A stretch of 12,433 nt of DNA from the IMG/VR virus record IMGVR_UViG_2526164630_000020. One strand, 5' to 3'. The notes under the pieces are model-generated. The model did no database searches, had not been told where the DNA came from, and saw only the letters and a list, made by a program, of their open reading frames with translations. Made by a program: the position numbers and the translations under genes. Positions within the stretch are counted from its first letter, which is position 1, and each line of letters starts with the position of its first letter. Origin of the DNA: a virus. Taxonomy: Duplodnaviria > Heunggongvirae > Uroviricota > Caudoviricetes. Shown piece by piece: positions 1-12,433 of the stretch.

Positions 1-274
1 TACTGGCGACTCGTATGACAACGCGATGGCGGAGAGCATCAATGGTCTTTACAAAGCGGAGGTAATACACCGTAAGAGCTGGAAAAACCGTGCAGAAGTG
101 GAACTGGCCACACTCACGTGGGTGGACTGGTATAACAATCGACGATTGCTGGAAAGGCTGGGCCATATTCCTCCGGCAGAAGCAGAAAAAGCTTATTATG
201 CTTCCATCGGAAACGATGATCTGGCAGCCTGAGTTCACAGATAAAACACTCTCCAGGAAACCCGGGGCGGTTCA
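1..274 (+). mobile_element. Right end of an IS3-family insertion sequence (partial; element continues upstream of the window). Terminal inverted repeat ends ...GGTTCA at about 274.
   Basis: Plus-strand frame 2 reads ...TGDSYDNAMAESINGLYKAEVIHRKSW..., the conserved C-terminal region of IS3-family DDE transposases (orfB). Stop codon at 230-232. The next 42 bp end in ...CA-3' (minus strand reads TGAACCGCCCCGGGTTTCCTGGAG...), the TG...CA terminus typical of IS3-family elements, and from memory resembling IS629/IS1203-type ends. Homology to lambda L starts exactly at 275. Confidence 0.7.
2..232 (+). CDS. IS3-family transposase OrfB, C-terminal fragment (5' end lies outside the window)
   Basis: Open frame from position 2 with no upstream stop in the window; YDNAMAES motif and C-terminal region typical of IS3-family orfB; stop TGA at 230-232. 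The listed ORF 26..232 is the Met-initiated sub-part. Confidence 0.8.
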   Translation, partial: TGDSYDNAMAESINGLYKAEVIHRKSWKNRAEVELATLTWVDWYNNRRLLERLGHIPPAEAEKAYYASIGNDDLAA

Positions 275-930
275 CACCATGCCGCGCATCTCACACCCGC
301 GCATGCACTTGCTGCATCTGTCCTTACGGATATCGGTGGTGGGTTTATCGAACTCATCCGCCACCGCAGGACCGTTATACCCGCATTCATCTCCCCGGTA
401 ATACCACATACAGGTGTTCGCCAGCATGATGCGACCGGGAAACAGCGCTCCGTCCGTCTCCGTCGGTGTTGCCAGCACAAACGAGGCTGTCATGGCCGTC
501 AGCTCTGACATCTGCTCCACCACCCAGCGGTCGCTCAGCTCCTGCTCCGGGTCCGCTTCCGGATTGCCCGCCACAAAATTCACCGCATCCAGAAAACGGG
601 CATACACCCGGCGGCGGACCACCGTGGCCCCCACCAGGCTCTGCAGGTCCTCCGCCATTCCCGGTGACCAGACCGAACAGAATTGGACACCGTCAGCGAC
701 GGGCGGGCACTGCTGCCCTTCCCGTTCATCTCAAAGCCACTGCCGTCAATCGGGTATGCCTGATATTGCCGCCCCTGCCAGGTAACCGCCTCCCCTTTTT
801 CATTCAGCTCATTGCAGAAAAAATACCGCTCACCACCCTGTACCGTCAGGTCGATTTCCCAGAGTACCACCCGCGGTGACTGCTCTGATTTAACCGACTC
901 GTTCAGACTTTCTTCGTGAATATCCTGCAT
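275..930 (-). pseudogene. L: Tail tip assembly protein L-like gene, disrupted by two +1 frameshifts (near 681-684 and 658-662) and 3'-truncated by the IS insertion
   Basis: ORF 580..930 (MQDIHEESLNE...VVLWEIDLT...GERYFFCNE...) matches the lambda L N-terminus through ...LTVSN. ORF 272..658 (MAEDLQSLVGATVVRR...GRIMLANTC...RGDECGY...CSKC) matches the rest of L in another frame. The intermediate frame between them reads LFGLVTG (lambda LYGMVTG). About 14 C-terminal codons are missing, and the stop at 272-274 is the IS terminal TGA. Confidence 0.75.
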
Positions 931-1259
931 CAGTTCACCACCTGCTTAAACTCCGCGCTGAATTCAACCCGCAGCATGCGAACCCGTGATGACCAGGCGG
1001 CACAGGTCACCTTTATCTGCCGCCAGGCATAAGGCGGTGTCCACAGAAACGCCTTCCAGCCACCGTGCTCTGCCAGGAATGCCTCCAGATGTCGGGCCTC
1101 CTCCCGGGTCACGGAAAGCGTCACACGGTATGTTTTCAGGTCAGCATTCAGCCCCGCCGCCATACGCTGCGAATACCCGTCACCAAAACGCACTTCACGC
1201 ACCGATGGCTGCGAGTTCACCTCCATATCCGGCTTCACTTTCCAGCGAAATGTTTTCAT
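930..1259 (-). CDS. M: Minor tail protein M
   Basis: 109 aa, MKTFRWKVKP...GGWKAFLWTPPYAWRQIKVTCAAWSSRVRMLRVEFSAEFKQVVN; near-colinear with lambda gpM (109 aa). Stop overlaps the L start. Confidence 0.9.
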   Translation of the reverse strand: MKTFRWKVKPDMEVNSQPSVREVRFGDGYSQRMAAGLNADLKTYRVTLSVTREEARHLEAFLAEHGGWKAFLWTPPYAWRQIKVTCAAWSSRVRMLRVEFSAEFKQVVN

Positions 1260-3835
1260 CGCCTGCCTCCGGAAAAGACGCCGCCATCACGCATCTGCGC
1301 CTGAATCTCATCCTGCGCCCCCTTGCGGGCCATGTCATACACCGCCTTCATCAGCTGCGGCCCCGCCTGTCCGTTGGTGCCGTCGTTCTGAATCACCACG
1401 TGATTGTTCTGATTAAAACTAATGCCTTCCGCCCGCCGCATCTGCGCCGGACTTCCGGCACCGCCCACATAACCACCTTCCGCATACCCGCGCATCAGAC
1501 GATACAGGTTGCCGACGCCAATCCGGCTGGTTGCCTCCTTCGTGAAGACAAACTCCCCGCGGTGGACAATACCGGCAGGTTCGTATTTGCCACCGGTTCC
1601 CGTAAATCCTCCGGTCGCGAAATGGAAGTTCGCCGCCGCAGCCTGAATGGCCGTCCCCGTGGAGGCAGACGCCCCACCACCGAAAGCACCACCCATGGCG
1701 CTGCCAATACTCCCGACAATCCCCACCATGGCCTGCTTCAGAAAAATCTCTGTCAGCATGGAGAGCACAGAACGGGTGAAACCACGCCAGCTCTGTTCGC
1801 TGCCGGTCAGCATCGCTGCCATATTCTGTGCAATACCGTCAAAGGTCTGCGTGGCCACGCTTTTAACCTGCGAAAAACTGTCCGTCGCACTTTCTGCCCA
1901 CTCGCCCCAGCCGGACTTCAGACCGGCCATCCAGCTTCCACGAAGCTGCTCCTCCGCAGACCAGGTGTTCTTCAGTGCAGATGTGGCCTTCGCCAGCGCA
2001 TCCGGATTATCACCGTACACGTCACGAAGGCGCTGCGATTCCGACTCCCGCTGTGCCTGACGGTCCGTCAGCCCCCGGGCTTTTGCGCTGATTGCAGCCT
2101 GCTTCGCACTCTGCTGCTGTTCAAACCGCACAGCCTGATTTGCCAGCTCATTCAGCCGTTTCTGGTATTCAACCTTGTCACCCAGGTCAGCCAGCTGGCG
2201 TTTGTACTCCAGCGTCTCTTGCTCATGGGCCAGCAGGGATTTCTCCTGTGCAGACAGCTGGCGACGTTGCGCCGCCTCCTCCAGTACCGCGAACTGACTC
2301 TCCGCCTTCCACAAATCCCGGCGCTGCTGGCTGATTTTCTCATTCGCTCCGCTGTGCTTCTCCAGCGTCCGGAGCTCGGTTTCAAGCGCCAGCAGCGCCG
2401 CATGCGTCAGGTCTTCCTGACGCTCACCGGCTGACACTTTAACACCTGACGACTTCGGCTTTTTCAGCGTCGATTCATAATCCTTTTTCGCCGCCGCCAT
2501 CAGCGTGTTGTAATCCGCCTGCAGGATTTTCCCGTCTTTCAGGGCCTTATTCAGCTCTTCCTGCCGGTTAGTATATTTCTCCAGCGGCGTCAGCAGACGC
2601 TCATACGCCTTCTGCGCCTCTCCGGTATACTTCAGCTGTGATGCGTCCCGTTCGGCCCGGTCCCTGGTAGCCAGTTCACCGGCTTTTTCCATATCCGACT
2701 GCAGCGTGGCCGCTGCCAGCCCCAGACGGGCATTTTCCCGGTCATCCCATGCGCCCTGCAGGTTGGCACGGAAAGAGGAGGTCTTTCCCCGGCGCTGGCT
2801 CCGGCTCTGGTACCACTGCCATTTTTTATCCGCCTCATCGAATGCCTTCTGCGCACTGGCAAGCATATCCGCTGAGGATTCCGGACGACCGATATCCAGA
2901 ATGGCATCCCACATCGATTTGAATGCCTTCCCTGTTTTATCCGCCCAGGTCTCCAGTGTCCCCATGTTTTCTTTCAGGCGACGGGTCTGCTCATCAAAGC
3001 CTTTCGTGGCGATATCGTTCGCCGCCTGTAAGGCCCCGGCCTCATCACCGGAACGCTGCAGCTGCGCAACATACGCAATCTGCTCTGCCGTCACGTTACG
3101 GAACTGGCGCGCCATCGCCATCAGCCCCGACGTCGGGTCGGTGGTCAGTTTTCCGAAAGCCTCTGCAACCTTGTCCACCTCCACACCGGATGCAGAAGCA
3201 AAACGCGCGACACTCTGGTTGATGGCATCAAACTGTGCACCACCACGCACACCGACATTCACCAGGGCTGCCAGTGACTCACTCGCCTGGTTAAACGTCA
3301 GCCCTGCGGCCTGTCCGGCTCTGGAGAGCGTCAGCATGCGATCGGCAGTCAGTCCGGACTGATTACCGGAAAGAACCAGGGTTTTATTAAACGCTGAAAG
3401 CGTGGAATCCCCCTGGTACCAGGCGTACGCCAGCGCACCTGTCGCCACCGCCAGCGAGGTGACCCCGACCATCGGCAGGGTGATCGTACCGGCAAGTCCC
3501 CTGAACATGGGGATCATCCCGCCGAAGGAGTCCTTCACCTGACCGCCCTGTTGCAGCAGGATCAGCCAGGGATTCTGACCACCGGCAAGCTGCGTGGCGA
3601 TATCCGTAAACTGTGCGGGCAGGGTTCGCATGGCCGCTTTATACTGCCCGACGGAAATCCCGGCTTTTTGTGCAGCCAGCGCCTGACGACTCAGGTTCTG
3701 CTCAACGACACCGACGGTTTTTCTGGCGTCAGTCTCCAGTCCGGAAAAATGACGCCTTACCCGGCTCATCTGCTCATCGAAACGGACCGCATCCAGACTC
3801 AGGTCAATAACAAGATCACCAACCGGCTGGGACAT
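1256..3835 (-). CDS. H: Tail tape measure protein (lambda gpH-like)
   Basis: 859 aa single open frame, MSQPVGDLVIDLSLDAVRFDEQ... to ...AVYDMARKGAQDEIQAQMRDGGVFSGGRR; colinear with lambda H (about 853 aa). GGAGG Shine-Dalgarno about 8 nt upstream of the ATG at 3835. Confidence 0.9.
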   Translation of the reverse strand: MSQPVGDLVIDLSLDAVRFDEQMSRVRRHFSGLETDARKTVGVVEQNLSRQALAAQKAGISVGQYKAAMRTLPAQFTDIATQLAGGQNPWLILLQQGGQVKDSFGGMIPMFRGLAGTITLPMVGVTSLAVATGALAYAWYQGDSTLSAFNKTLVLSGNQSGLTADRMLTLSRAGQAAGLTFNQASESLAALVNVGVRGGAQFDAINQSVARFASASGVEVDKVAEAFGKLTTDPTSGLMAMARQFRNVTAEQIAYVAQLQRSGDEAGALQAANDIATKGFDEQTRRLKENMGTLETWADKTGKAFKSMWDAILDIGRPESSADMLASAQKAFDEADKKWQWYQSRSQRRGKTSSFRANLQGAWDDRENARLGLAAATLQSDMEKAGELATRDRAERDASQLKYTGEAQKAYERLLTPLEKYTNRQEELNKALKDGKILQADYNTLMAAAKKDYESTLKKPKSSGVKVSAGERQEDLTHAALLALETELRTLEKHSGANEKISQQRRDLWKAESQFAVLEEAAQRRQLSAQEKSLLAHEQETLEYKRQLADLGDKVEYQKRLNELANQAVRFEQQQSAKQAAISAKARGLTDRQAQRESESQRLRDVYGDNPDALAKATSALKNTWSAEEQLRGSWMAGLKSGWGEWAESATDSFSQVKSVATQTFDGIAQNMAAMLTGSEQSWRGFTRSVLSMLTEIFLKQAMVGIVGSIGSAMGGAFGGGASASTGTAIQAAAANFHFATGGFTGTGGKYEPAGIVHRGEFVFTKEATSRIGVGNLYRLMRGYAEGGYVGGAGSPAQMRRAEGISFNQNNHVVIQNDGTNGQAGPQLMKAVYDMARKGAQDEIQAQMRDGGVFSGGRR

Positions 3836-4687
3836 ATCTCACACCTCCCGGAATCCCCGCTGAAGCCATCATTAATGCGACATCATCCTCGCTGACATCC
3901 GCCACATCCGCAGACGATAAAATCTCACGCCCTCCGTCCCCACCAAACCGTACGCCTCCGGCAAGTCCTGCCGCTTTCTGCATCAGCATTTTTTCCTCAT
4001 CCGGCATCTCCGTCTGCGCTTTCTCACGCCGGGGGGCAAGCAGACTGAAATCAGAGGGATGCATATCCGGATCGCAAAAAAACAGGCTGAGTACGGCGTA
4101 CGTCAGCCCGGAAAAATGCATATCCAGTTGGGTATCGTGAAAATAATGCGTACGGTAAAAATGTCGCCAGTCGGCATATTCGGTGGATGTCATCCCGGCA
4201 AGCATGGCGCGCCAGTCAGGCCTCCCCATCTCACGCGCCAGTCTGAGGGCAAAATTCAGCTCGCCGTCGAAGACTTTCCCGCAGAAAAATCATCATCAGT
4301 CAGCGCGTTATATTTCGCCACTTCGGTGCTGTCAGTATCCGCATGAACAGCCCCGCTCATCCCGGACAGACGCAACACCACATCTTCCGCCCGGGCAATG
4401 GCATCCGCAGGCCAGGTGGTGAGCACTTCCTGTTCGATCTGCATCACAGCCTCATTCATTGACGGTGATGCCGTTTTCTGCGGATGGTTATGCCACAGGG
4501 ACATCGCCACCAGAAACGCGCCGGTTCTGACGAGATCTTCCACGCTTACCTGCAGGTTGCCGCTGGCTTCCGCCTCTTCTGCCCGCCGTTTCAGGAGGGC
4601 AAGATGCTCAATACGCTGCAGCGCAGACAATTCGGAAAGCGTGACAGACACACCGTTATATTCAAATTGTTCTGTTTTCAGAAACAT
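3816..4687 (-). CDS. T: Tail assembly chaperone G-T fusion, made by -1 programmed ribosomal frameshift at the slippery heptamer G GGA AAG (4280..4274)
   Basis: Minus-strand GGGAAAG lies at 4280-4274 with GGA and AAG as zero-frame codons of G (Gly-Lys). Reading on in the -1 frame gives GKVFDGELNFALRLAREMGRPDW..., colinear with lambda gpGT, and this frame continues as the listed ORF 3816..4229. Confidence 0.85.
4256..4687 (-). CDS. G: Tail assembly chaperone G
   Basis: 143 aa, MFLKTEQFEYNGVSVTLSELSALQRIEHLALLKR...; matches lambda gpG, ending ...SAGKSSTAS. GGAGG Shine-Dalgarno upstream. Confidence 0.9.
   Translation of the reverse strand: MFLKTEQFEYNGVSVTLSELSALQRIEHLALLKRRAEEAEASGNLQVSVEDLVRTGAFLVAMSLWHNHPQKTASPSMNEAVMQIEQEVLTTWPADAIARAEDVVLRLSGMSGAVHADTDSTEVAKYNALTDDDFSAGKSSTAS
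4274..4280 (-). promoter_or_regulatory. Slippery sequence G GGA AAG for -1 translational frameshifting (G to G-T)
   Basis: Heptamer in the correct phase relative to G; the downstream -1 frame encodes the T homolog. Confidence 0.85.
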
Positions 4688-4700
4688 GTATGACCTCCGT

Positions 4701-5453
4701 TTACCCTGCAGCGCCTGCTTCAGTAACGGTGACTTCAGCTACCGTGGCAAACTGACCATTACCGGAAATCACAGGGATCTGCACCTTACCTGTCGCCACG
4801 CCGTTTACCGTAATTGTCATATCTTTCACACTAATGGTGGCTTTCGACGGATCGGCGGAAACCACTCTGAACGTCTTGTCGGTTGCACTTTCCGGCTCAA
4901 AAGAAACCGTCAGGGTGGTTGTTTTCCCTTTTGCCACCGTACCGGATGTCGGCGTCACCTTAATCGCAGTGACCGGCGTAATTTTGCTGCGTTCTTCCGC
5001 TACAGAAGGTTTGCCCACGTTGGTCACTTTCACCGTGCGGGTGATCACTTCTTTCGCCGTCACGGCCTTACCGATACTGCTGACCCAGCCACGAAACACA
5101 TCCACCGTGCCGTTCGGAAAACGGATTTTATAGGCCCGCACATCCCCGCTTTCAAACCAGCCTATAAGCCCTTTCTGACCTTCTTCTCCCGGTTTCCAGG
5201 CCAGCGTAAAACTGGTATCTCCTGCAGACTTCTGCCCCTGCCCGGTCGCGGTCCAGTCCGCGTCTTCATCATCCAGGTAGTTATCATCGTAGGGTTCTGC
5301 CGTCATCTCGCCCGGCGTCAGATCCTTCACCTTAGCCAGTCGCAGCCAGTCATCGTCTGACAACGGGTTTGCATAGGCGTCACCCTGACCGTTATAAACC
5401 CACAGGGTGGTACCGGCACCTTTTACCGGCTCAAGGGGATTTGGTGTTGACAT
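4701..5453 (-). CDS. V: Major tail protein V
   Basis: 250 aa, [36 protein letters not shown]...; matches lambda gpV throughout, including the C-terminal Ig-like region. Confidence 0.9.
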
Positions 5454-5460
5454 ATCGTCC

Positions 5461-5856
5461 TCACATCTCGTATGTAATGGAATAAGTCAGATCCGCAGAA
5501 CTCCATAACGCCATATCGTCATCACGACGATACTCATAGCCCTGCGTAACCATCGTCGTAATCAGGTCTGCCAGTGCCGGGATCGCAGTCATCGCCGGAT
5601 AAATCCGGCTTTCCATCCACGAATCCAGCTCCGAATCCGGTACCTGTGCTGGTAAAAACACCTCAATATGCAGTGTGGCCCGCCAGGTATCTGCATCCAG
5701 CTCTTCACCGGTATACTCTGCATCCGTCAGATAAACCGCGACGGCCGGAAAATCCTCTTCGTCAAAAACAACGGGGCGACCATCAAACAGCGTCGCCCCG
5801 TGTTCATGCAGCTCCAGTGCATCCAGCACTGCAGCACGGATATCAGTATGTTTCAT
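5461..5856 (-). CDS. U: Tail terminator protein U
   Basis: 131 aa, [54 protein letters not shown]...LTYSITYEM; near-identical in length and sequence to lambda gpU. Confidence 0.9.
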
Positions 5857-6386
5857 CGTTTTATCGCAATCCTCAGTTGTTGTTTCAGCGCATATGCCAG
5901 TTCTCCGGGCAGGCGTTCACGCCGGATACGGTCAACATTCTCATCAAACGCCTGTTTCAGTGGGGCCGCCATCGGGATTTTCACCACATCAATGGGGTAA
6001 CGGTTTTTCCCGGCCACACGCTGCATGACATGCCAGCGACCATTTTTTAATCGCTGAATAAATGCCCGCTGATAACGATGCTGACCGGCTTTGAGTATGC
6101 TGTCCGGACGACGCCCCGGCATCCTGATCCCCAGCTTAATCACCGGGAGATCACCGCGGTTAACGATAATTCTGGCATTCGGATTTCTGACCGTGGCCCG
6201 TTTCAGTCTGGACCGTTCCTTTACCAGTTTCCGGTTCACCCTGGTTTCCCGGGCAACCTGTGACGAAGACTGATTAATCGCCGTTGTGGCCACGCGGTTA
6301 ATGGCCATTGCTGAAGCCGCCGGAATGGCGTTTTTACGAACCCGGCTCAGATTTTCAATCGTCTGATCAAGCCCTTTTATCGCCAT
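5853..6386 (-). CDS. Z: Tail completion protein Z
   Basis: 177 aa, MAIKGLDQTIENLSRVRKNAIPAASAMAINRVATTAINQSSSQVARE...KNGRWHVMQRVAGKNRYPIDVVKIPMA...; matches lambda gpZ, with a shorter basic central segment. Confidence 0.88.
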   Translation of the reverse strand: MAIKGLDQTIENLSRVRKNAIPAASAMAINRVATTAINQSSSQVARETRVNRKLVKERSRLKRATVRNPNARIIVNRGDLPVIKLGIRMPGRRPDSILKAGQHRYQRAFIQRLKNGRWHVMQRVAGKNRYPIDVVKIPMAAPLKQAFDENVDRIRRERLPGELAYALKQQLRIAIKR

Positions 6387-6400
6387 AATTCACCCTGCGT

Positions 6401-6754
6401 TTATCGTCGCCGGTTAACGGCGGGTGGTTGACCACGGTTGAGCCAGAGATAACAGCTGCCCCCGTCATCCGGAGAAACACGATCCACCCAGAATATCTCA
6501 CCATTAATGGTCAGCGTGTCACCACGCCGCACGGCACGAACCGTATCCGTCCGCACAAATAATGACGGGCTGCTTCCTTCAATACGGACCCCGCCACCGG
6601 CAAACCCCAGCGACTCCGGATCGTCAAAAACCCCCTGAACTTCGCTGCCACACTGTGCCCCCGAGGTGAACTGCGCACAGAGCCCCATCACTTCAACAAT
6701 CGTGCTGTCCACCCCGGCAAGGGCAGCATCAAAGGCATTCTGAAAATCACGCAT
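6401..6754 (-). CDS. FII: Head-tail joining protein FII
   Basis: ORF 6401..6790; the part from MRDFQNAFDAALAGVD...GVFDDPES...GVRIEGSSPSLFVRTDTVRAVRRGDTLTI...FWVDRVSPDDGGSCYLWL...PPAVNRRR matches lambda gpFII (117 aa). Start chosen at the Met at 6754 (the 13th codon of the listed ORF) by alignment; the start at 6790 cannot be excluded. Confidence 0.8.
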   Translation of the reverse strand: MRDFQNAFDAALAGVDSTIVEVMGLCAQFTSGAQCGSEVQGVFDDPESLGFAGGGVRIEGSSPSLFVRTDTVRAVRRGDTLTINGEIFWVDRVSPDDGGSCYLWLNRGQPPAVNRRR

Positions 6755-7121
6755 AAACAGCCATTCCGCCATCAACGTGTGTTTTTGCATCTGAGGACAT
6801 AATCAGAATCACCCGACCAACATCCGCAATCTCAACGGATTCCCCTGTTTCACCATCAATGCCACAGAGATGGAGGCAGGTCAGAACTCTGATGCGCGTT
6901 AACGCACCGGATGTATCCTCACGAACATCATGAGCCGCGGTTTCCCGCTCCCGGATCACCGTATCCCCAACCTGAACATCCTCGCCGGATGACTGTATTT
7001 CCTCTTCCCATTCCGCCACCCGCTGCGCTATCTCTGCGGCACTCCCGGATATATCCGGCTCACGCCCCAGAATCAGGGCCAGTTCATCAAGCCGTTTCAG
7101 ATTTTGCTCTTTCGTTGCCAT
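6747..7121 (-). CDS. FI: DNA-packaging / head completion protein FI
   Basis: ORF 6747..7169; start chosen at ATG 7121 (MATKEQNLKRLDELALILG...), preceded by an AGGGGG Shine-Dalgarno and matching the lambda gpFI N-terminus. The longer form would start at a GTG 3 nt after the E stop with no ribosome-binding site. Confidence 0.75.
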   Translation of the reverse strand: MATKEQNLKRLDELALILGREPDISGSAAEIAQRVAEWEEEIQSSGEDVQVGDTVIRERETAAHDVREDTSGALTRIRVLTCLHLCGIDGETGESVEIADVGRVILIMSSDAKTHVDGGMAVYA

Positions 7122-7135
7122 ATCAGCCCCCTGTG

Positions 7136-7164
7136 AAAAAAGACACGGGGGCATTTCGCCCCCG
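7136..7164 (-). terminator. Candidate intrinsic terminator or attenuator just after the major capsid gene E
   Basis: Minus strand reads CGGGGGC-GAAAT-GCCCCCG (7-bp perfect GC stem 7164-7158 / 7152-7146, 5-nt loop) followed by TGTC and a T6 run (7141-7136). Lies between the E stop (7173-7175) and the FI start (7121). Confidence 0.5.
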
Positions 7165-7172
7165 CTCACGGA

Positions 7173-8201
7173 TTATTTCACCTGTACCACCACAAACTCA
7201 TCCGGGTCCGGCAACACCATCAGCGGCGCGGACTGCGTCATGGTAAATTCACGGGCGGGATCCCCCACCGTCAGCCAGTGTTTCGGATAACGGGAAGAGG
7301 CCACCACACCTTCGGACAACGCCTGCGCATCCTGAATGGCACCGTAACAACGGATCCCATCTGCAGCAGTATTCCCCAGAACCAGCATGCCCTCCGGCAG
7401 ATAACGTTTTTCGATACCGTCTTCTGCTATATAAGACGTTTTCGCCACCACAATGGCCAGATCGCCGTAATACCCCTTGAAGGACACCACTGCGCCCAGA
7501 TCTTTCACTGCCGTTTCGAGTTGAGAATTTGAACCGCGACGGGTATCCAGTTTTTCGCGGAACAGCTTAAAACCATTCAGAAGACGCCAGACGGTACCGT
7601 CCATAATGGCAATATTCACAAGACCGCTGGCCTGGTCGCAGTAGAGGTCAAGATCATGTGTAGGATCGAACGTGTCACGATCCTGTTTTGACCACTCCTT
7701 ACCACTACCCTGAGTGATGTTATTCTTCGTCGACCTGCCAAAATCGACCTCAATTTTCTCGAACTGGTCTCCTTCCATCGTATATTTGCCATACAACACA
7801 GCATTTACCGCCTGTATTTCTTCCACCTGGACAATCGCGTGCTCTTCCTGTTTGAGGTTATCGGTAATGATACGCAGACGGCGGTAAGCCGGATCGTTCA
7901 GTTGAGCCGGATCTTCACCAGGAAGGCGCTCAACCGCCTGCTGGTAATTAAATTCGTGTTTCGGCTTGACGTAGCCCGGACGTAACACGCGGGTTTCACC
8001 ACCACGATGACGCAGCACTTTTCCTTCAACAACCGGGGAGACATAGGCCGCCACCGGCGTTTTTCCGGTAATTTTGTCCAGCATCACCTCTTCGGTATGG
8101 AAATTCACCGTACGGCGGAAAAACAGCTCCAGAAACAGCGCACGAAATTTCACTTTTTGTTCGGTATAACCGAGTAACTGGCGGGTCGTAAACAATCCCA
8201 T
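7173..8201 (-). CDS. E: Major capsid protein E
   Basis: 342 aa, MGLFTTRQLLGYTEQKVKF...GYVKPKHEF...YTMEGDQFEKIEVDFGRS...RGSNSQLETAVKDLG...DPAREFTMTQSAPLMVLPDPDEFVVVQVK; colinear with lambda gpE (341 aa). Confidence 0.92.
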   Translation of the reverse strand: MGLFTTRQLLGYTEQKVKFRALFLELFFRRTVNFHTEEVMLDKITGKTPVAAYVSPVVEGKVLRHRGGETRVLRPGYVKPKHEFNYQQAVERLPGEDPAQLNDPAYRRLRIITDNLKQEEHAIVQVEEIQAVNAVLYGKYTMEGDQFEKIEVDFGRSTKNNITQGSGKEWSKQDRDTFDPTHDLDLYCDQASGLVNIAIMDGTVWRLLNGFKLFREKLDTRRGSNSQLETAVKDLGAVVSFKGYYGDLAIVVAKTSYIAEDGIEKRYLPEGMLVLGNTAADGIRCYGAIQDAQALSEGVVASSRYPKHWLTVGDPAREFTMTQSAPLMVLPDPDEFVVVQVK

Positions 8202-8229
8202 AAATCAGTTCCTTTCATTCAGAAATCAG

Positions 8230-8607
8230 TCAGGCCACCGCGGTGGCCTGATAACGTGTTACGGCAGCGCCGCGTGACTCAGGGCACTGCCGGCAAAGGT
8301 CATTTGCCTTTTTGTGTTCATCCACACTTTCAGGCCAGCGGATTGCCTCCGTCGCAAAGGTCCCCGACTTGTAATAGGTCAGTACCGTCTCTGTGCCTTC
8401 AAGCGGCAGTACCAGTATGCCAACTGCACTACCGGCTTTCTGTCCGTCCCAGACCACCAGTTTCCCGCTGGCTTCATCCAGCATCAGGGGCGTCAGTGCC
8501 GGTGTTGCCGAGGAAATCCCGCTGCTGCCTGTGGCGGTATGAGCCGGATCATTACCGGCAAAAATACGTACTTCCGCACGCTGTTCAGTGATGGTTTTCG
8601 TTACCAT
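8230..8607 (-). CDS. D: Head decoration protein D; C-terminus probably altered by a +1 frameshift at an A5 run (plus-strand T5 at 8309-8313)
   Basis: 125 aa; NDPAHTAT...TPLMLDEASGKLVVWDG...AVGILV...TVLTYYKSGTF matches lambda gpD. After ...DEHKK the listed frame diverges, while the adjacent frame reads RQMTFAGSALSHAALP-stop (lambda ...TAFAGTAISIV), which would end at about 8259. Confidence 0.8.
   Translation of the reverse strand: MVTKTITEQRAEVRIFAGNDPAHTATGSSGISSATPALTPLMLDEASGKLVVWDGQKAGSAVGILVLPLEGTETVLTYYKSGTFATEAIRWPESVDEHKKANDLCRQCPESRGAAVTRYQATAVA
8232..8249. repeat. 18-bp perfect palindrome AGGCCACCGCGGTGGCCT at the D/E junction
   Basis: Self-complementary over 9+9 bp with a central CCGCGG; sits at or just past the D 3' end, about 30 nt upstream of the E start. 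Confidence 0.6.
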
Positions 8608-8643
8608 ATTGTAAAAACCTCCTGTTGATGATCAGCACTGACT

Positions 8644-9246
8644 TCATGGCATGGCCATGAGCATTTTCACGTCCGCATCACCGTCTGCTGACGTCTGTGG
8701 CACGCCACCCTGTACCGCTGCCGGTGAATGGTTCGCCATGATGCGTTCAAACAGGGCGGTTGTGGATGCAGAGACCGGTTCTGCCTTACCTGATCCCGCA
8801 GCCAGCACAGCCCGGGCGCTCTCCACAGTCATTCCCGGGCAGGCAGCCAGTTGTTCAGCCTGCGCCTCAGCCCCTTTTGCCTCATCCAGTGCCATGATCT
8901 GATCACGGAGTGAGGGTCCGGCATCCGCCTGCGGTGAAGCAGCCAGGATCGGGCGGGCTTTTTCCACCGTCATCTCCGGCATCGCCGCCAGCGTTGCCGC
9001 CAGTTGTTCACGACCGTTCGCTTCTTCACACGCCATAATGCGATCGGCTTCACTCTGCGTGGATGCCACCGGCTGCTGCGGTGCCGCCGCGGCCAGAATC
9101 GCCCGGGCCTGTGCAACGCTCATGCCCTGTTGTCCTGCCAGCATCGTGGCAAGCTGTTCACGTCCTTTCGCTTCCTGGCATGTCAGGATCCCCATCACTC
9201 GCTGGTTCTCCTGCGCGGCGGCTTCCGTTGCAGTTAATTGCGGCAT
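8644..9246 (-). CDS. nu3: Scaffolding protein Nu3-like, nested in frame within the 3' part of C
   Basis: Internal ATG at 9246-9244 (MPQLTATEAAAQENQRVMGILTCQEAKGRE...) preceded by a perfect AGGAGG Shine-Dalgarno (minus strand ...GAGGAGGCACT-ATG). In lambda, Nu3 is translated in the C frame from an internal start and shares the C-terminus. Confidence 0.6.
   Translation of the reverse strand: MPQLTATEAAAQENQRVMGILTCQEAKGREQLATMLAGQQGMSVAQARAILAAAAPQQPVASTQSEADRIMACEEANGREQLAATLAAMPEMTVEKARPILAASPQADAGPSLRDQIMALDEAKGAEAQAEQLAACPGMTVESARAVLAAGSGKAEPVSASTTALFERIMANHSPAAVQGGVPQTSADGDADVKMLMAMP
8791..9201 (-). repeat. Three diverged tandem copies (about 150 bp each) of a scaffold-domain motif inside C/Nu3
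   Basis: Protein repeats RVMGILTCQEAKGREQLATMLAGQQGMSVAQARAILAAA / RIMACEEANGREQLAATLAAMPEMTVEKARPILAAS / IMALDEAKGAEAQAEQLAACPGMTVESARAVLAAG, then a partial RIMAN. Matching DNA repeats are visible, e.g. CTGTTCACG..CGCTTC at about 9005 and 9155. Confidence 0.7.
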
Positions 9247-10137
9247 AGTGCCTCCTCTGACATTACTGTTCAGCGCCGTGGCCATCACACTGATGGCATC
9301 CGACGCATTGACTAATTCATCCGCCAGCCCGGCCTCAATGCCGGACTGACCTTCAAAAACGGCGGCCTCTGTTCCCGTGACGGCATCAACAGACAGACCG
9401 GTAAACATCGCCACTTTTTCGGCAAACATCCGGCGCGCCGCATCAATGCGCTGCTGCATGTCCTGGCGAACCTCTGCCGGTAAGGCTTCAAACTGATTGC
9501 CATCCACCTTGTGCGCCCCTGAGTAAATCAGCGTGATATCCACACCGGCCTGCGCCAGATGACCGGCATAGCTGACATGGCTCATCATCACGCCAATGGA
9601 GCCGATACGGGATGTCTGGGTAACCAGCCGTCGGGAGCAGGCCGACGCCAGCAGCATGGCTGCAGAACAGGCCGTGTCATTGCACAGTGCCCAGACCGGC
9701 TTCTGCTGACGGAGGCGGTAAATCATGTCAGCGCAGTCAAACGCGCCGGCGGCCTGCCCGCCCGGACTGTCAATGTCCAGCAGTATGCCCCGCACCTGGC
9801 TATCTGCCATTGCCTGCTGAAGACAGGCGACAATGCCGTCATAGCCAGTCATTCCGGAAAATGGCCGCATCCCCCCAGCCGGTGCACCAGCGTGCCGGTC
9901 ACCGGCAGTACAGCAATACCGTTCACCACCCTGTAAACACGGGCCGGTCGTTTACCTCCGGCCATGTACTCGTCCGTTTCAGCCAGCATTCCGGGAGCAT
10001 CAAACTGTACCTGCTGTTGTGGTACCGAAAGACTTGCTGCCCCCATCTCGCGCCCGAGCGCGCAAAAGAAAACCCGCGCATAGGCGGGCTCCAGAAGCAG
10101 CGGTTCATTGAATGCTGCGGCAATAATGTGTGAAAGA

Positions 10138-11729
10138 TTACGTCTCACGGGGTGTTGTCTCCTCTTCCGGCCTGCGACTCTCCGCTATCTGCTGCTGATA
10201 CGCCTGCGCTATCCACACCGGACGTGAGAGTCCGGCTTTTTGCCGCTCTGCAGATTCCCTGACCTGCTGGCGGAAAATGTCCTGATAATCCTCGCCCATC
10301 AGCGCCAGCTCTTTCTCATACGTGCTCAGTCCGGCCTCAATGCGCATCACTGATTCCTGAACCTCCTTGAGCCCGTCAATGGCCATTCTTCCGGCACCAA
10401 TCCACTCAGCCCGTGACCAGGCTGATCGCGCCTGATAAAAATCAAAACGCGCCCGTGGCGGACGAATAATCCCCCGAAGAAGTGCCTCTTCCAGCCAGCA
10501 GGAAAACATCTGCGTGGCCAGCCGGGACGCAATAAATTTTCGCCGCCCCATAAGATAGCGCCACGACTCATTGGCGGATGCGCGGGCACTTGAATAACTG
10601 ACCTTCGAGTAATCACGGGACAACTGTTCGTAGGAAACGCCAAGACCGGCGGCGATATACCGCAGCAGCGCCTGTTCAAGCGCCGAAAATCCATTGTCTG
10701 AATCCTGCGCGGTCTGAAGTTTCAGATCATCACCGGGGAAAAGGTGCGGAATTTTGACACCGCCCAGCGTCACGCTATTCGTGTCATACCAGGTGGAGAA
10801 CTTATCCAGAATATTAATAAGCGGATTATCCTTCTGCCCCTGCGGCGCACCGGCGATATATTCAAAGGCCTTTTCGGTATCAAGGTCACTTTCAATCGTC
10901 GCTGCATACATCGCCTTCACTATGGCCGACTGAAGCTGTGTTGCCTGCAGGGAATCGAGCATCTTCAGCCGTTCCATGACGCTGTAAAACTGATTGGCCC
11001 CACGGGTCTGCCCGTCCTCCACCGGCTCGAAAATATGCAGCATGGCCGGACGCCCGGTGGGAAGTTCACGCGGGATCCGTTCCCATCGTCCACTCCCGGA
11101 GAACGGAAAATCATCCTCACAGATATGGTACGCAACGGCACGACCATATCGATCGACCTCCACACCGGCCCGCAGAAAACGGTTCCCCATACCGTGTCCT
11201 GGCGTGTCCACCCGTTTCGGACTCACGGCTTTAAAACGCGTACGAAACAGTTGCGTGCTCTCCGTATCCCAGACCGGCTGCACAAAGATTTCGCCGTTAA
11301 ACGCATGAACGCCCACACCTTCACGGATAAATTCCGTAAACGTGCGTTTCCCTTCCACGTCGATCTCGCCAGACATCCCTTCTGCGTATTCCGACCAGGC
11401 CGCCTCCACCTCATCGACAAAACTTTTTGCCGCAGTCTCCCGCATCCCCAGCCAGCGCCAGTTCGGACGGTAGCTGATCAGAAACATATGCCCGACAATA
11501 TGATCCTTATGCAGGGCCACCGCATTAGCCGCTATCCCGTTATTGCGCACCAGATCATCTGCCCGGGCATTCCCCAGACGCAACGCAGGCAGCAGGGCTG
11601 CATCGGCACTCTGCGCCGGTGGCAACCACTCCGCCATTTGCCCGCCAAATCCTGCGCGCCCCCGTTGTAGCTGAGACTCTCACGAAGCGGAACGCCGTTC
11701 ACATCAATCAGGACAGGCGTTCGTTTCAT
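10138..11729 (-). pseudogene. B: Portal protein B, N-terminal about 25 codons in a different frame from the rest (apparent 1-bp deletion near a C5 run at 11659-11663)
   Basis: ORF 11532..11729 begins MKRTPVLIDVNGVPLRESLSYNGG (lambda gpB MKTPTIPTLLGPDGMTSLREYAGYHGGG). Main ORF 10138..11637 reads upstream in its own frame as GFGGQMAEWLPPAQSADAALLP (lambda GFGGQLRSWNPPSESVDAALLP) and continues colinear with gpB (...FEPVEDGQTRGANQFYSVME...AAGLGVSYEQLSR...). The ATG at 11729 overlaps the W stop (ATGA). Confidence 0.8.
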
Positions 11730-11932
11730 AACCTCACTCCCAGCGGACGACGGCGACGTCGGGTTGTCCCCAGTACCGACTCCGCATCATTGATCGCCCG
11801 GTTAAGCTCATCCAGAGAAGCCGCCGTATATTCAATTCTGCGACCATCTTTCTGGACAGACACCACCCGTTTACCGGTTAATAAATCAAGGCGCGCCTGA
11901 CGCAGCGCCTGCAGTTCAGCGACTGTAACCAT
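11726..11932 (-). CDS. W: Head-tail connector / head completion protein W
   Basis: 68 aa, MVTVAELQALRQARLDLLTGKRVVSVQKDGRRIEYTAASLDELNRAINDAESVLGTTRRRRRPLGVRL; same length as and colinear with lambda gpW. Confidence 0.88.
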   Translation of the reverse strand: MVTVAELQALRQARLDLLTGKRVVSVQKDGRRIEYTAASLDELNRAINDAESVLGTTRRRRRPLGVRL

Positions 11933-12433
11933 TCACTCCTCCGGACAGCTTCGCTGCCAGTTCTTTCAGGGTTGGCCGGGTCGTCTCTTCTTCCCGGGAT
12001 TTTGCCAGTACAGCCAGATCAAGCTGCCAGCGTTGCACGGACACACGTAATGCCGCGTAGGCATACACCAGGCAGTCCAGCGCTTCGTTACGCCGCTTTT
12101 TGTTATCCCACAGCAGACGCATCTTTCCTTTTTCCCACTTCTCCACAAGCTCTTCCGCGACCAGTTGCTGCGCCTCTGTCTGCGAAAAAATCTCCGGATC
12201 ATCAGGAAACGGATGGCATACGACGTGGCTTCATCCGCAGGCGTGGGATCGGCTTTCATACGGGCATAGAGAATTTCTTTTGCGGTGTCCGTTCCCACTT
12301 CACACAGATACACGCCCCGCTGATTGCGGGTTTTCGGCATGGTGATCACCGGCTTGCCATAGACAGATGCGCCTTTTACCGGCAGCACCCGGAAAACACC
12401 GTGTTTTTTTGATCTCTGATAACAATTTCACCA
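11916..12433 (-). pseudogene. A: Terminase large subunit (A-like), C-terminal region; partial (5' end outside the window) and frame-disrupted near 12215-12232, possibly again near the T7 run at 12404-12410
   Basis: One frame reads ...VFRVLPVKGASVYGKPVITMPKTRNQRGVYLCEVGTDTAKEILYARM...; the adjacent frame reads HPFPDDPEIFSQTEAQQLVAEELVEKWEKGKMRLLWDNKKRRNEALDCLVYAYAALRVSVQRWQLDL...LSGGVNGYSR, matching the lambda gpA C-terminus. The first frame has a stop at 12428-12430 just upstream of VFRVLPVKG. Confidence 0.75.

What the first reader, a model, noticed from the sequence alone, without database searches (positions are those of the whole stretch)
230..700. IS3-family element inserted into the 3' end of tail gene L, where the tail-tip genes K/I/J should follow
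Homology to lambda L stops at 275, about 14 codons short of the expected end, and the L stop codon is supplied by the IS terminal TGA (272-274). In the lambda gene order, K, I and J would come next on this side; the IS occupies that position instead. The prophage is therefore probably tail-defective, and the IS may mark a deletion or rearrangement joint.
Basis: partly seen in the sequence, partly recalled or inferred. Interest (0 to 1): 0.45.

Follow-up and report, generated by a model that had tools for sequence, protein, structure and literature searches.

The report
IS629 end in prophage tail gene L
The window really does end in a copy of the common insertion sequence IS629 that cuts the last 14 codons off a prophage tail gene, but this is an ordinary insertion already present and annotated in related E. 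coli O45:H2 genomes, where the tail-tip genes follow intact behind it.

Summary
Window 1-274 is the last 274 bp of IS629 (IS3 family). It abuts tail gene L (minus strand) exactly after codon 218 of 232, and the stop codon is the IS terminal TGA (272-274).

The inference drawn from it is mostly not supported.
- The window is a whole 12,433-bp draft contig of E. coli DEC11C (O45:H2). It stops inside a roughly 30-copy repeat, so nothing can be said about what lies beyond it.
- Seven finished genomes of the same lineage carry the identical junction. In the copies examined, the IS is 1,310 bp long and flanked by a 3-bp duplication (CAC). L codons 219-232, K and I follow directly, then J and, where the flank reached, lom. 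That is a simple insertion, not a deletion joint.
- In those genomes the interrupted L belongs to a different prophage with an HK97-like head and a 1,080-aa tape measure. The lambda-like prophage that fills the rest of this contig has an intact L.
- The two L genes are identical over window 275-658. Two extra bases (660, 681) that break L sit at the first diverged positions.

The link is therefore most likely an assembly cross-over. Real recombination between the prophages is the main rival. Low interest; already known.

The parts
1..274 (+). Last 274 bp of IS629 (IS3 family, full length 1,310 bp). The contig starts inside the element.
   Evidence: 100% identical to the tail of the 1,310-bp pO103 copy. 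99.3% identical to annotated IS629, whose annotated end matches window 274.
2..232 (+). C-terminal 76 codons plus stop of the IS629 transposase (OrfB part), including the conserved ...DNAMAES...K motif. The stop is at 230-232.
   Evidence: Translation. Pfam rve_3/rve_2 on the called 76-aa fragment.
250..274 (+). Right terminal inverted repeat of IS629 (25 bp, ends ...GGTTCA).
   Evidence: 22 of 25 positions match the left repeat of a full copy.
272..274 (-). TGA stop codon of truncated L, supplied by the IS terminus.
   Evidence: The same arrangement is annotated as a 218-aa L CDS in strain 2011C-4251.
275..277 (.). CAC, the target triplet. In finished relatives it is duplicated on the far side of the IS.
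   Evidence: L015 left junction reads ...TTAGCCAC|TGAACCGCC. GTG/GTG flanks in five finished genomes.
275..930 (-). Tail gene L (lambda gpL homologue), codons 1-218 of 232. As deposited it is broken by two extra bases.
   Evidence: Alignment to the intact relative and to lambda L. Pfam Phage_tail_L on both fragments.
275..658 (.). 384-bp stretch in which the L genes of the two prophages of the relative are identical. The switch from IS-bearing copy to lambda-like copy must lie here.
   Evidence: Three-way alignment. Window 1-658 differs from the IS-bearing locus of 2011C-4251 only at base 403.
660..660 (.). Extra C. Window has CATTCCCGG, prophage A has CATTCCGG, prophage B has CATCCCGG. Probably a consensus artefact.
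   Evidence: Absent from all fetched relatives.
681..681 (.). Extra A (CAGAATT versus CAGATT), lying between the second and third A/B differences. Probably a consensus artefact.
   Evidence: Absent from all fetched relatives.
930..1259 (-). Tail gene M (109 aa) of the lambda-like prophage. Together with the A-type alleles at 659-930, it shows that the rest of the contig follows prophage A.

Best explanation
Window 1-274 is the right end of an IS629 copy that transposed into tail gene L between codons 218 and 219. This was one simple copy-out/paste-in insertion with a 3-bp CAC duplication. It is inherited in the E. coli O45:H2 lineage to which the source strain DEC11C belongs.

The insertion removes the last 14 residues of the L protein and ends it at the IS terminal TGA. 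Nothing beyond it is deleted. In finished relatives the remaining L codons, K and I follow the IS directly, then J and (where the flank reached) lom.

The contig stops 274 bp into the IS only because IS629 is a repeat of about 30 copies that the draft assembly could not cross.

In finished relatives the interrupted L belongs to a second prophage, here called B (HK97-like head, 1,080-aa tape measure, 113-aa M). The lambda-like prophage that makes up window 659-12433, here called A, has an intact L. Attachment of the IS-bearing L end to prophage A in this contig is therefore most likely an assembly cross-over inside the 384 bp where the two L genes are identical.

The two extra bases at 660 and 681 that break L are then consensus errors caused by mixing reads of the two copies.

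Shown: the junction, its identity with the relatives, the simple insertion there, and the position of the extra bases. Inferred: that DEC11C has the same two prophages and that the join is artefactual.
For: Identity of the IS end and exact junction.

The window is the whole contig AIGX01000083.1 of DEC11C. DEC11C is O45:H2 (PMC6028524).

IS629-tail matches number 26-30 per chromosome plus 4-6 per plasmid in the closest genomes.

The same junction appears as one uninterrupted match in 7 of 5,426 finished genomes. All seven are among the closest relatives of the window.

In those examined, the IS is 1,310 bp with GTG/CAC on both sides, followed by L codon 219 onward, K and I, with J beyond where the flank reached. 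Upstream is always the 1,080-aa tape measure and 113-aa M.

Prophage A of the same genome matches window 275-12433 at 99.6% and has an intact L-K-I-sodC-J.

A and B are identical over window 275-658. The window follows A from 659 on. The two insertions lie at 660 and 681, within 25 bp of the first A/B difference. The first combines A's TT run with B's CCC run.

Finished relatives show 0 indels against each other over 3.95 kb, even with up to 75 substitutions.

The IS-truncated B-type L is on record on 13 contigs. An A-type L joined to the IS is on record nowhere else.

Other IS629 copies in the same tail module (in K, in J) and on pO103 are also simple insertions with 3-bp duplications.
Against: No read data or other DEC11C contig could be reached, so it is not shown that DEC11C carries a B-type prophage or an intact A-type L.

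An assembler that met a fork at base 275 might be expected to break the contig there rather than run 274 bp into the IS.

The second insertion (681) is not explained by a simple averaging of the two alleles.

The contig also has five other single-base indels away from any known A/B boundary. Plain sequencing error could therefore account for one of the two by chance.

The long A/B identity on both sides of the IS would also allow real recombination.
Confidence: 0.55

Rival explanations
1. The contig is correct. In DEC11C the lambda-like prophage A really carries the IS629-interrupted L. The IS-bearing segment was moved from prophage B into A by homologous recombination or gene conversion across the flanking L and K sequence that the two prophages share. 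K, I and J would still follow the IS.
For: A and B are identical for 384 bp on one side of the IS, and through the L remnant into K on the other. The contig as deposited reads straight from A-type L into the IS. Exchange between lambdoid prophages is commonplace (general knowledge).
Against: This combination is seen in none of 5,426 finished genomes and on no other contig of the protein collection. All seven finished relatives keep the IS in B. Precise recombination does not create the two extra bases at the A/B boundary.
Confidence: 0.3
2. The IS marks a deletion or rearrangement joint, and K, I and J of this prophage are lost or moved.
For: Only 21 of 47 IS629 sites in four O157:H7 genomes had matching duplications (PMC3271280). 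The K allele of the closest relative was found on no DEC11C contig. That is weak evidence, since one changed residue or sequencing error would hide it.
Against: The identical junction in seven finished genomes is a simple insertion with a CAC duplication and K and I behind it. The absence of K/I/J here is simply the contig end inside a repeat.
Confidence: 0.07
3. IS629 inserted independently into prophage A of DEC11C at the same nucleotide and in the same orientation as in prophage B of its relatives.
For: IS629 shows some target preference, and the same CAC triplet is duplicated at the insertion in K of other strains.
Against: Identical base, orientation and IS sequence (window 1-658 differs at one base from the relative's locus) point to a single event.
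Confidence: 0.03

Closest known systems
IS629 (IS3 family, IS51 group), abundant in enterohaemorrhagic E. coli and Shigella
   Same: The 274 bp present are identical to full 1,310-bp copies. They share the terminal TG...CA, the 25-bp inverted repeat, the transposase C-terminus and a prophage location. 62% of IS629 copies in O157:H7 lie in prophages (PMC3271280). A 3-bp duplication is present at this site in relatives.
   Different: Nothing of substance. The copy belongs to the pO103/O45-type variant, which differs from the O157-type annotated IS629 at 48 of 1,310 positions.
The annotated IS629-interrupted L gene of O45:H2 genomes (e.g. strain 2011C-4251, L = WP_032362331.1, 218 aa)
   Same: Same insertion base, orientation and stop codon. 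Window 1-658 differs from it at one base.
   Different: There the 5' third of L, M and the tape measure are of another prophage type (six amino-acid differences in L, 113-aa M, 1,080-aa tape measure). Here they are of the lambda-like type, and L carries two extra bases.
Bacteriophage lambda gpL (tail tip hub protein, PDB 8IYK chain L)
   Same: The intact relative is 232 aa, 77% identical to lambda gpL and matches it end to end (E = 8e-124). The four cysteines that hold the iron-sulfur cluster (173, 182, 205, 212) are retained.
   Different: The last 14 residues of the iron-binding domain are missing. 12 of those 14 are identical in lambda. The effect on function was not tested.

Membership tests
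IS3 family / IS629 | Near-identity to a reference IS629 over the whole element (about 1,310 bp) | tested here: inconclusive
   Only the last 274 bp are in the window. These are 100% identical to a 1,310-bp copy on pO103 and 99.3% identical to annotated IS629.
IS3 family / IS629 | Terminal inverted repeats ending 5'-TG...CA-3' | tested here: met
   The window ends ...CCCGGGGCGGTTCA at base 274. This 25-bp repeat matches the left end of full copies at 22 of 25 positions.
IS3 family / IS629 | DDE (rve) transposase made from orfA and orfB by programmed -1 frameshift | tested here: inconclusive
   The window holds only the OrfB C-terminus with the conserved E...K motif and rve_3/rve_2 hits. The frameshift is annotated in full copies with an identical tail.
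IS3 family / IS629 | 3-4 bp target-site duplication | not testable with these tools
   The left end is not on this contig. At the identical site in five finished genomes the duplication is CAC/GTG.
Lambda gpL family (Pfam PF05100 Phage_tail_L) | Sequence match to the family and to lambda gpL | tested here: met
   PF05100 hits both called fragments. The gene is 77% identical to lambda L. The intact relative matches 8iyk_L at E = 8e-124.
Lambda gpL family (Pfam PF05100 Phage_tail_L) | Four conserved cysteines of the C-terminal [4Fe-4S] domain | tested here: met
   Cysteines aligned to lambda 173, 182, 205 and 212 are all present before the truncation.
Lambda gpL family (Pfam PF05100 Phage_tail_L) | Full-length, uninterrupted reading frame | tested here: not met
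   The gene is truncated after codon 218 and, as deposited, frameshifted at 681 and 660.

The most novel reading that the evidence does not exclude
The contig is correct, and DEC11C documents an insertion sequence carried from one resident prophage to another by homologous exchange between their shared tail-gene sequence. A single IS insertion would then spread among co-resident prophages without transposing again.
Probability: 0.3. Interest if true: 0.25.

Novelty: already known. Interest (0 to 1): 0.1.

Why it matters
The finding matters little on its own. IS629 insertions in prophage genes of enterohaemorrhagic E. coli are well documented, and this one is already annotated in finished genomes.

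Its practical value is as a caution. Three features here are products of a draft contig that ends in a repeat and probably crosses between two near-identical prophage genes:
- the apparent 'IS in place of K/I/J';
- the apparent double frameshift in L;
- probably the assignment of the IS to this prophage.

Inferences about prophage defectiveness from such contigs need a finished relative or the reads.

Tried and rejected
- Junction 43-mer searched in one-genome-per-species contigs and in IMG/VR: no hit.
- Predicted left junction searched in IMG/VR: no hit.
- Exact look-up of the 128-aa truncated ORF: not on record.
- My first reading was that no finished genome shares the junction. That was wrong. 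The shared-junction loci covered only 73% of that query because their upstream part differs. Searches corrected it to 7 genomes.
- Attempts to reach other DEC11C contigs all failed. The K allele is on 9 contigs, all finished chromosomes. The I allele returned only the longest contigs.
- Hypothetical reciprocal products, meaning the frameshifted B-type N-terminal L fragment and C-terminal L fragments ending in the intact SINKLSQ tail: not on record for DEC11C.
- A 218-aa A-type 'partial' L (P0017) looked like a second case. Its contig ends one base past the site with the intact-type base G, so it is not an IS junction.
- The paper describing the DEC draft genomes (PMC3370608) is not held, so the sequencing platform could not be confirmed.
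- A programmed frameshift in L was considered and rejected, because every relative has one open 232- or 218-codon frame.

Full report
**What the window is.** The frameshifted 116-aa L fragment encoded at 583-930 is on record on one contig only. That contig is AIGX01000083.1, 12,433 bp, of assembly GCA_000250155.2, which is the window itself. Its source names the protein 'phage minor tail protein L [Escherichia coli DEC11C]'. DEC11C is an O45:H2 strain (PMC6028524).

**The observation.**
- Window 1-274 is 100% identical to the end of a 1,310-bp IS3-family element on pO103 and many other replicons.
- It is 99.3% identical to elements annotated 'IS3 family IS629'. The annotated mobile element in LC567828.1 ends at the base that matches window 274.
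- Frame 2 of bases 2-232 gives the transposase C-terminus, with its stop at 230-232.
- Bases 250-274 are the 25-bp right inverted repeat, matching the left one at 22 of 25 positions.
- From base 275 the sequence matches intact L genes. The closest intact L has 232 codons, and 275-930 corresponds to exactly 218 of them.
- The lost residues are ANFGSFLSINKLSQ, and the stop at 272-274 is the IS terminal TGA.

**What the truncation removes.** The intact relative is 77% identical to lambda gpL and matches the solved structure 8iyk_L end to end. According to PMC10721106, gpL residues 154-232 form an iron-binding domain. Its cluster is held by Cys173, Cys182, Cys205 and Cys212, and together with the N-terminus of gpJ it forms one hub subdomain. 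All four cysteines are retained. The 14 lost residues lie after the last one, and 12 of the 14 are identical in lambda. At 77% overall identity this conservation is suggestive only. Loss of function is plausible but not shown.

**What lies beyond the IS.** This cannot be read from the contig. The tail of IS629 matches 26-30 places per chromosome and 4-6 per plasmid in the closest genomes, which is why a draft assembly stops there.

The same junction is present as one uninterrupted match to window 100-650 in 7 of 5,426 finished E. coli genomes: 2011C-4251, SJ7, FWSEC0003 (O45:H2), 99E2750, UTAK-4, 2000-3039 and UTAK-2. All seven are among the best matches to the whole window.

In 2011C-4251 the L gene is annotated as a 218-aa CDS ending in the IS. 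On the far side of the IS lie K (C40 peptidase), I, J and lom. The left junction reads ...GGAAACTGCCAAAATTAGCCAC|TGAACCGCC. That is the L remnant, a second copy of CAC, and the left end of the IS.

In five finished genomes the IS is 1,310 bp, flanked by GTG on both sides in L sense, with L codon 219 following. K and I follow in all five, and the start of J is visible where the flank reached it. This is a simple insertion, not a deletion or rearrangement joint.

Other IS629 copies are likewise flanked by 3-bp duplications: in K (L002, CAC), in J (L010, GGC) and on pO103 (GTC).

I had first read as showing that no finished genome shares the junction. That was an error of coverage threshold, which searches corrected.

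**Which prophage carries it.** In every genome or contig where the IS-truncated L is resolved, the upstream genes are a 113-aa M and a 1,080-aa tape measure, and in the one locus fetched further upstream HK97-type head genes. I call this prophage B. The rest of the window (275-12433) instead matches, at 99.6%, a lambda-like prophage A of the same genomes. Its L is intact and is followed by K, I, sodC, J and lom.

The L genes of A and B are identical over window 275-658 and differ from 659 on. The window carries the A alleles at all later differences. Window 1-658 differs from the B locus of 2011C-4251 at one base, 403. The contig therefore joins the IS-bearing L end known from B to the body of A, with the switch somewhere in a 384-bp identical stretch.

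This combination occurs in no finished genome. An A-type L joined to the IS appears on no other contig in the protein collection, whereas the B-type truncated L is on 13 contigs.

**The two extra bases.** Relative to all relatives, L in the window has an extra C at 660 and an extra A at 681. Together they shift the frame, which is why the record carries two L fragments.

Both lie within 25 bp of the first A/B difference. At the first, A reads CATTCCGG, B reads CATCCCGG and the window reads CATTCCCGG. That is A's T-run followed by B's C-run. Precise recombination cannot produce this. A consensus built from mixed reads of two copies can.

The contig has seven single-base indels in 12.1 kb against 40 substitutions. 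Five of the seven change a homopolymer length. Finished relatives show none against each other over 3.95 kb, even at 75 substitutions.

If indels fell at random, two of seven landing within ±25 bp of one given point in 12 kb has a probability of about 3.5e-4 (my arithmetic). I conclude that the extra bases are consensus errors and that reads of a B-type L were present. DEC11C therefore has at least two L copies, like its relatives.

**Most likely account.**
1. An IS629 copy inserted once into L of prophage B in the O45:H2 lineage.
2. DEC11C inherited it.
3. The draft assembly walked from prophage A through the 384 identical bases into the B copy, then 274 bp into the IS, where it stopped.

I give this account 0.55.

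The main rival (0.3) is that the contig is right and the IS-bearing segment was transferred from B to A by homologous exchange. The identity on both sides of the IS would allow this. It rests mainly on the report that only 21 of 47 IS629 sites in O157:H7 have matching duplications (PMC3271280). An independent hit at the same base gets 0.03.

I could not reach any other DEC11C contig or its reads, so the choice between the first two accounts rests on inference.

**Consequences for the phage.**
- If the interrupted L is the only source of gpL for its prophage, tail-tip assembly may fail. That gpL is required for lambda tail assembly is general knowledge of lambda genetics, not tested here.
- The same genomes carry other L genes that differ from the interrupted copy at only six N-terminal residues, apart from the truncation. 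Complementation is therefore plausible.
- K starts 5 nt after the L stop with no evident ribosome-binding sequence. The IS may therefore lower K translation if K depends on coupling to L. This is inference.

**Verdict.** The feature is real, ordinary and already annotated elsewhere. Its inference about missing K/I/J and a defective prophage is not supported. The deposited contig probably misassigns the IS to the wrong prophage.

Noticed in passing
window 8300, 9870, 11656, 12206, 12421: Five further single-base indels relative to the closest finished genome. They break or alter the head decoration gene, the S49 prohead protease gene, the portal gene and (twice) the large terminase gene. Three are homopolymer-length changes. 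I did not test whether they also sit at boundaries with paralogous prophages.
   Followed up: partly
window 403: An A where both prophage copies of the relative, and all complete genomes listed among the best matches, have C. It changes Asp176 of L to Tyr. It may be a private substitution or an error.
   Followed up: partly
window 12380-12433: The right end of the contig lies inside the large terminase gene. A substitution and a single-base deletion fall in the last 21 bases, as if a second repeat boundary stopped the assembly there.
   Followed up: no
L002 4965-6274; L010 6274-7583: In other strains IS629 sits in K (duplication CAC) and in J after codon 42 (duplication GGC) of the same tail-tip module. 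The module is hit repeatedly.
   Followed up: partly
L004 911-1438: The lambda-like prophage of relatives carries a Cu/Zn superoxide dismutase gene (sodC) on the opposite strand between I and J. The HK97-like prophage lacks it, so it would serve as a marker to tell the two apart.
   Followed up: no
L008 1282-1936: A 1,936-bp draft contig of another E. coli (JAEAMZ010000174.1) with an A-type L ends one base past the IS629 insertion point, but with the intact-type base G. The coincidence of the break point is unexplained.
   Followed up: partly
L005 565-1874 versus L006 465-1774: The IS629 copy type found here (pO103/O45 type) differs from the O157-type annotated IS629 at 48 of 1,310 positions, but at only 2 of the last 274.
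   Followed up: partly
L004 2940-3005 (minus strand): K begins 5 nt after the L stop codon with no obvious Shine-Dalgarno sequence. This suggests K translation is coupled to L.
   Followed up: no
L025-L028: The relatives hold a third prophage with a B-type L that is intact (232 aa). At least three near-identical L genes therefore coexist per genome.
   Followed up: partly
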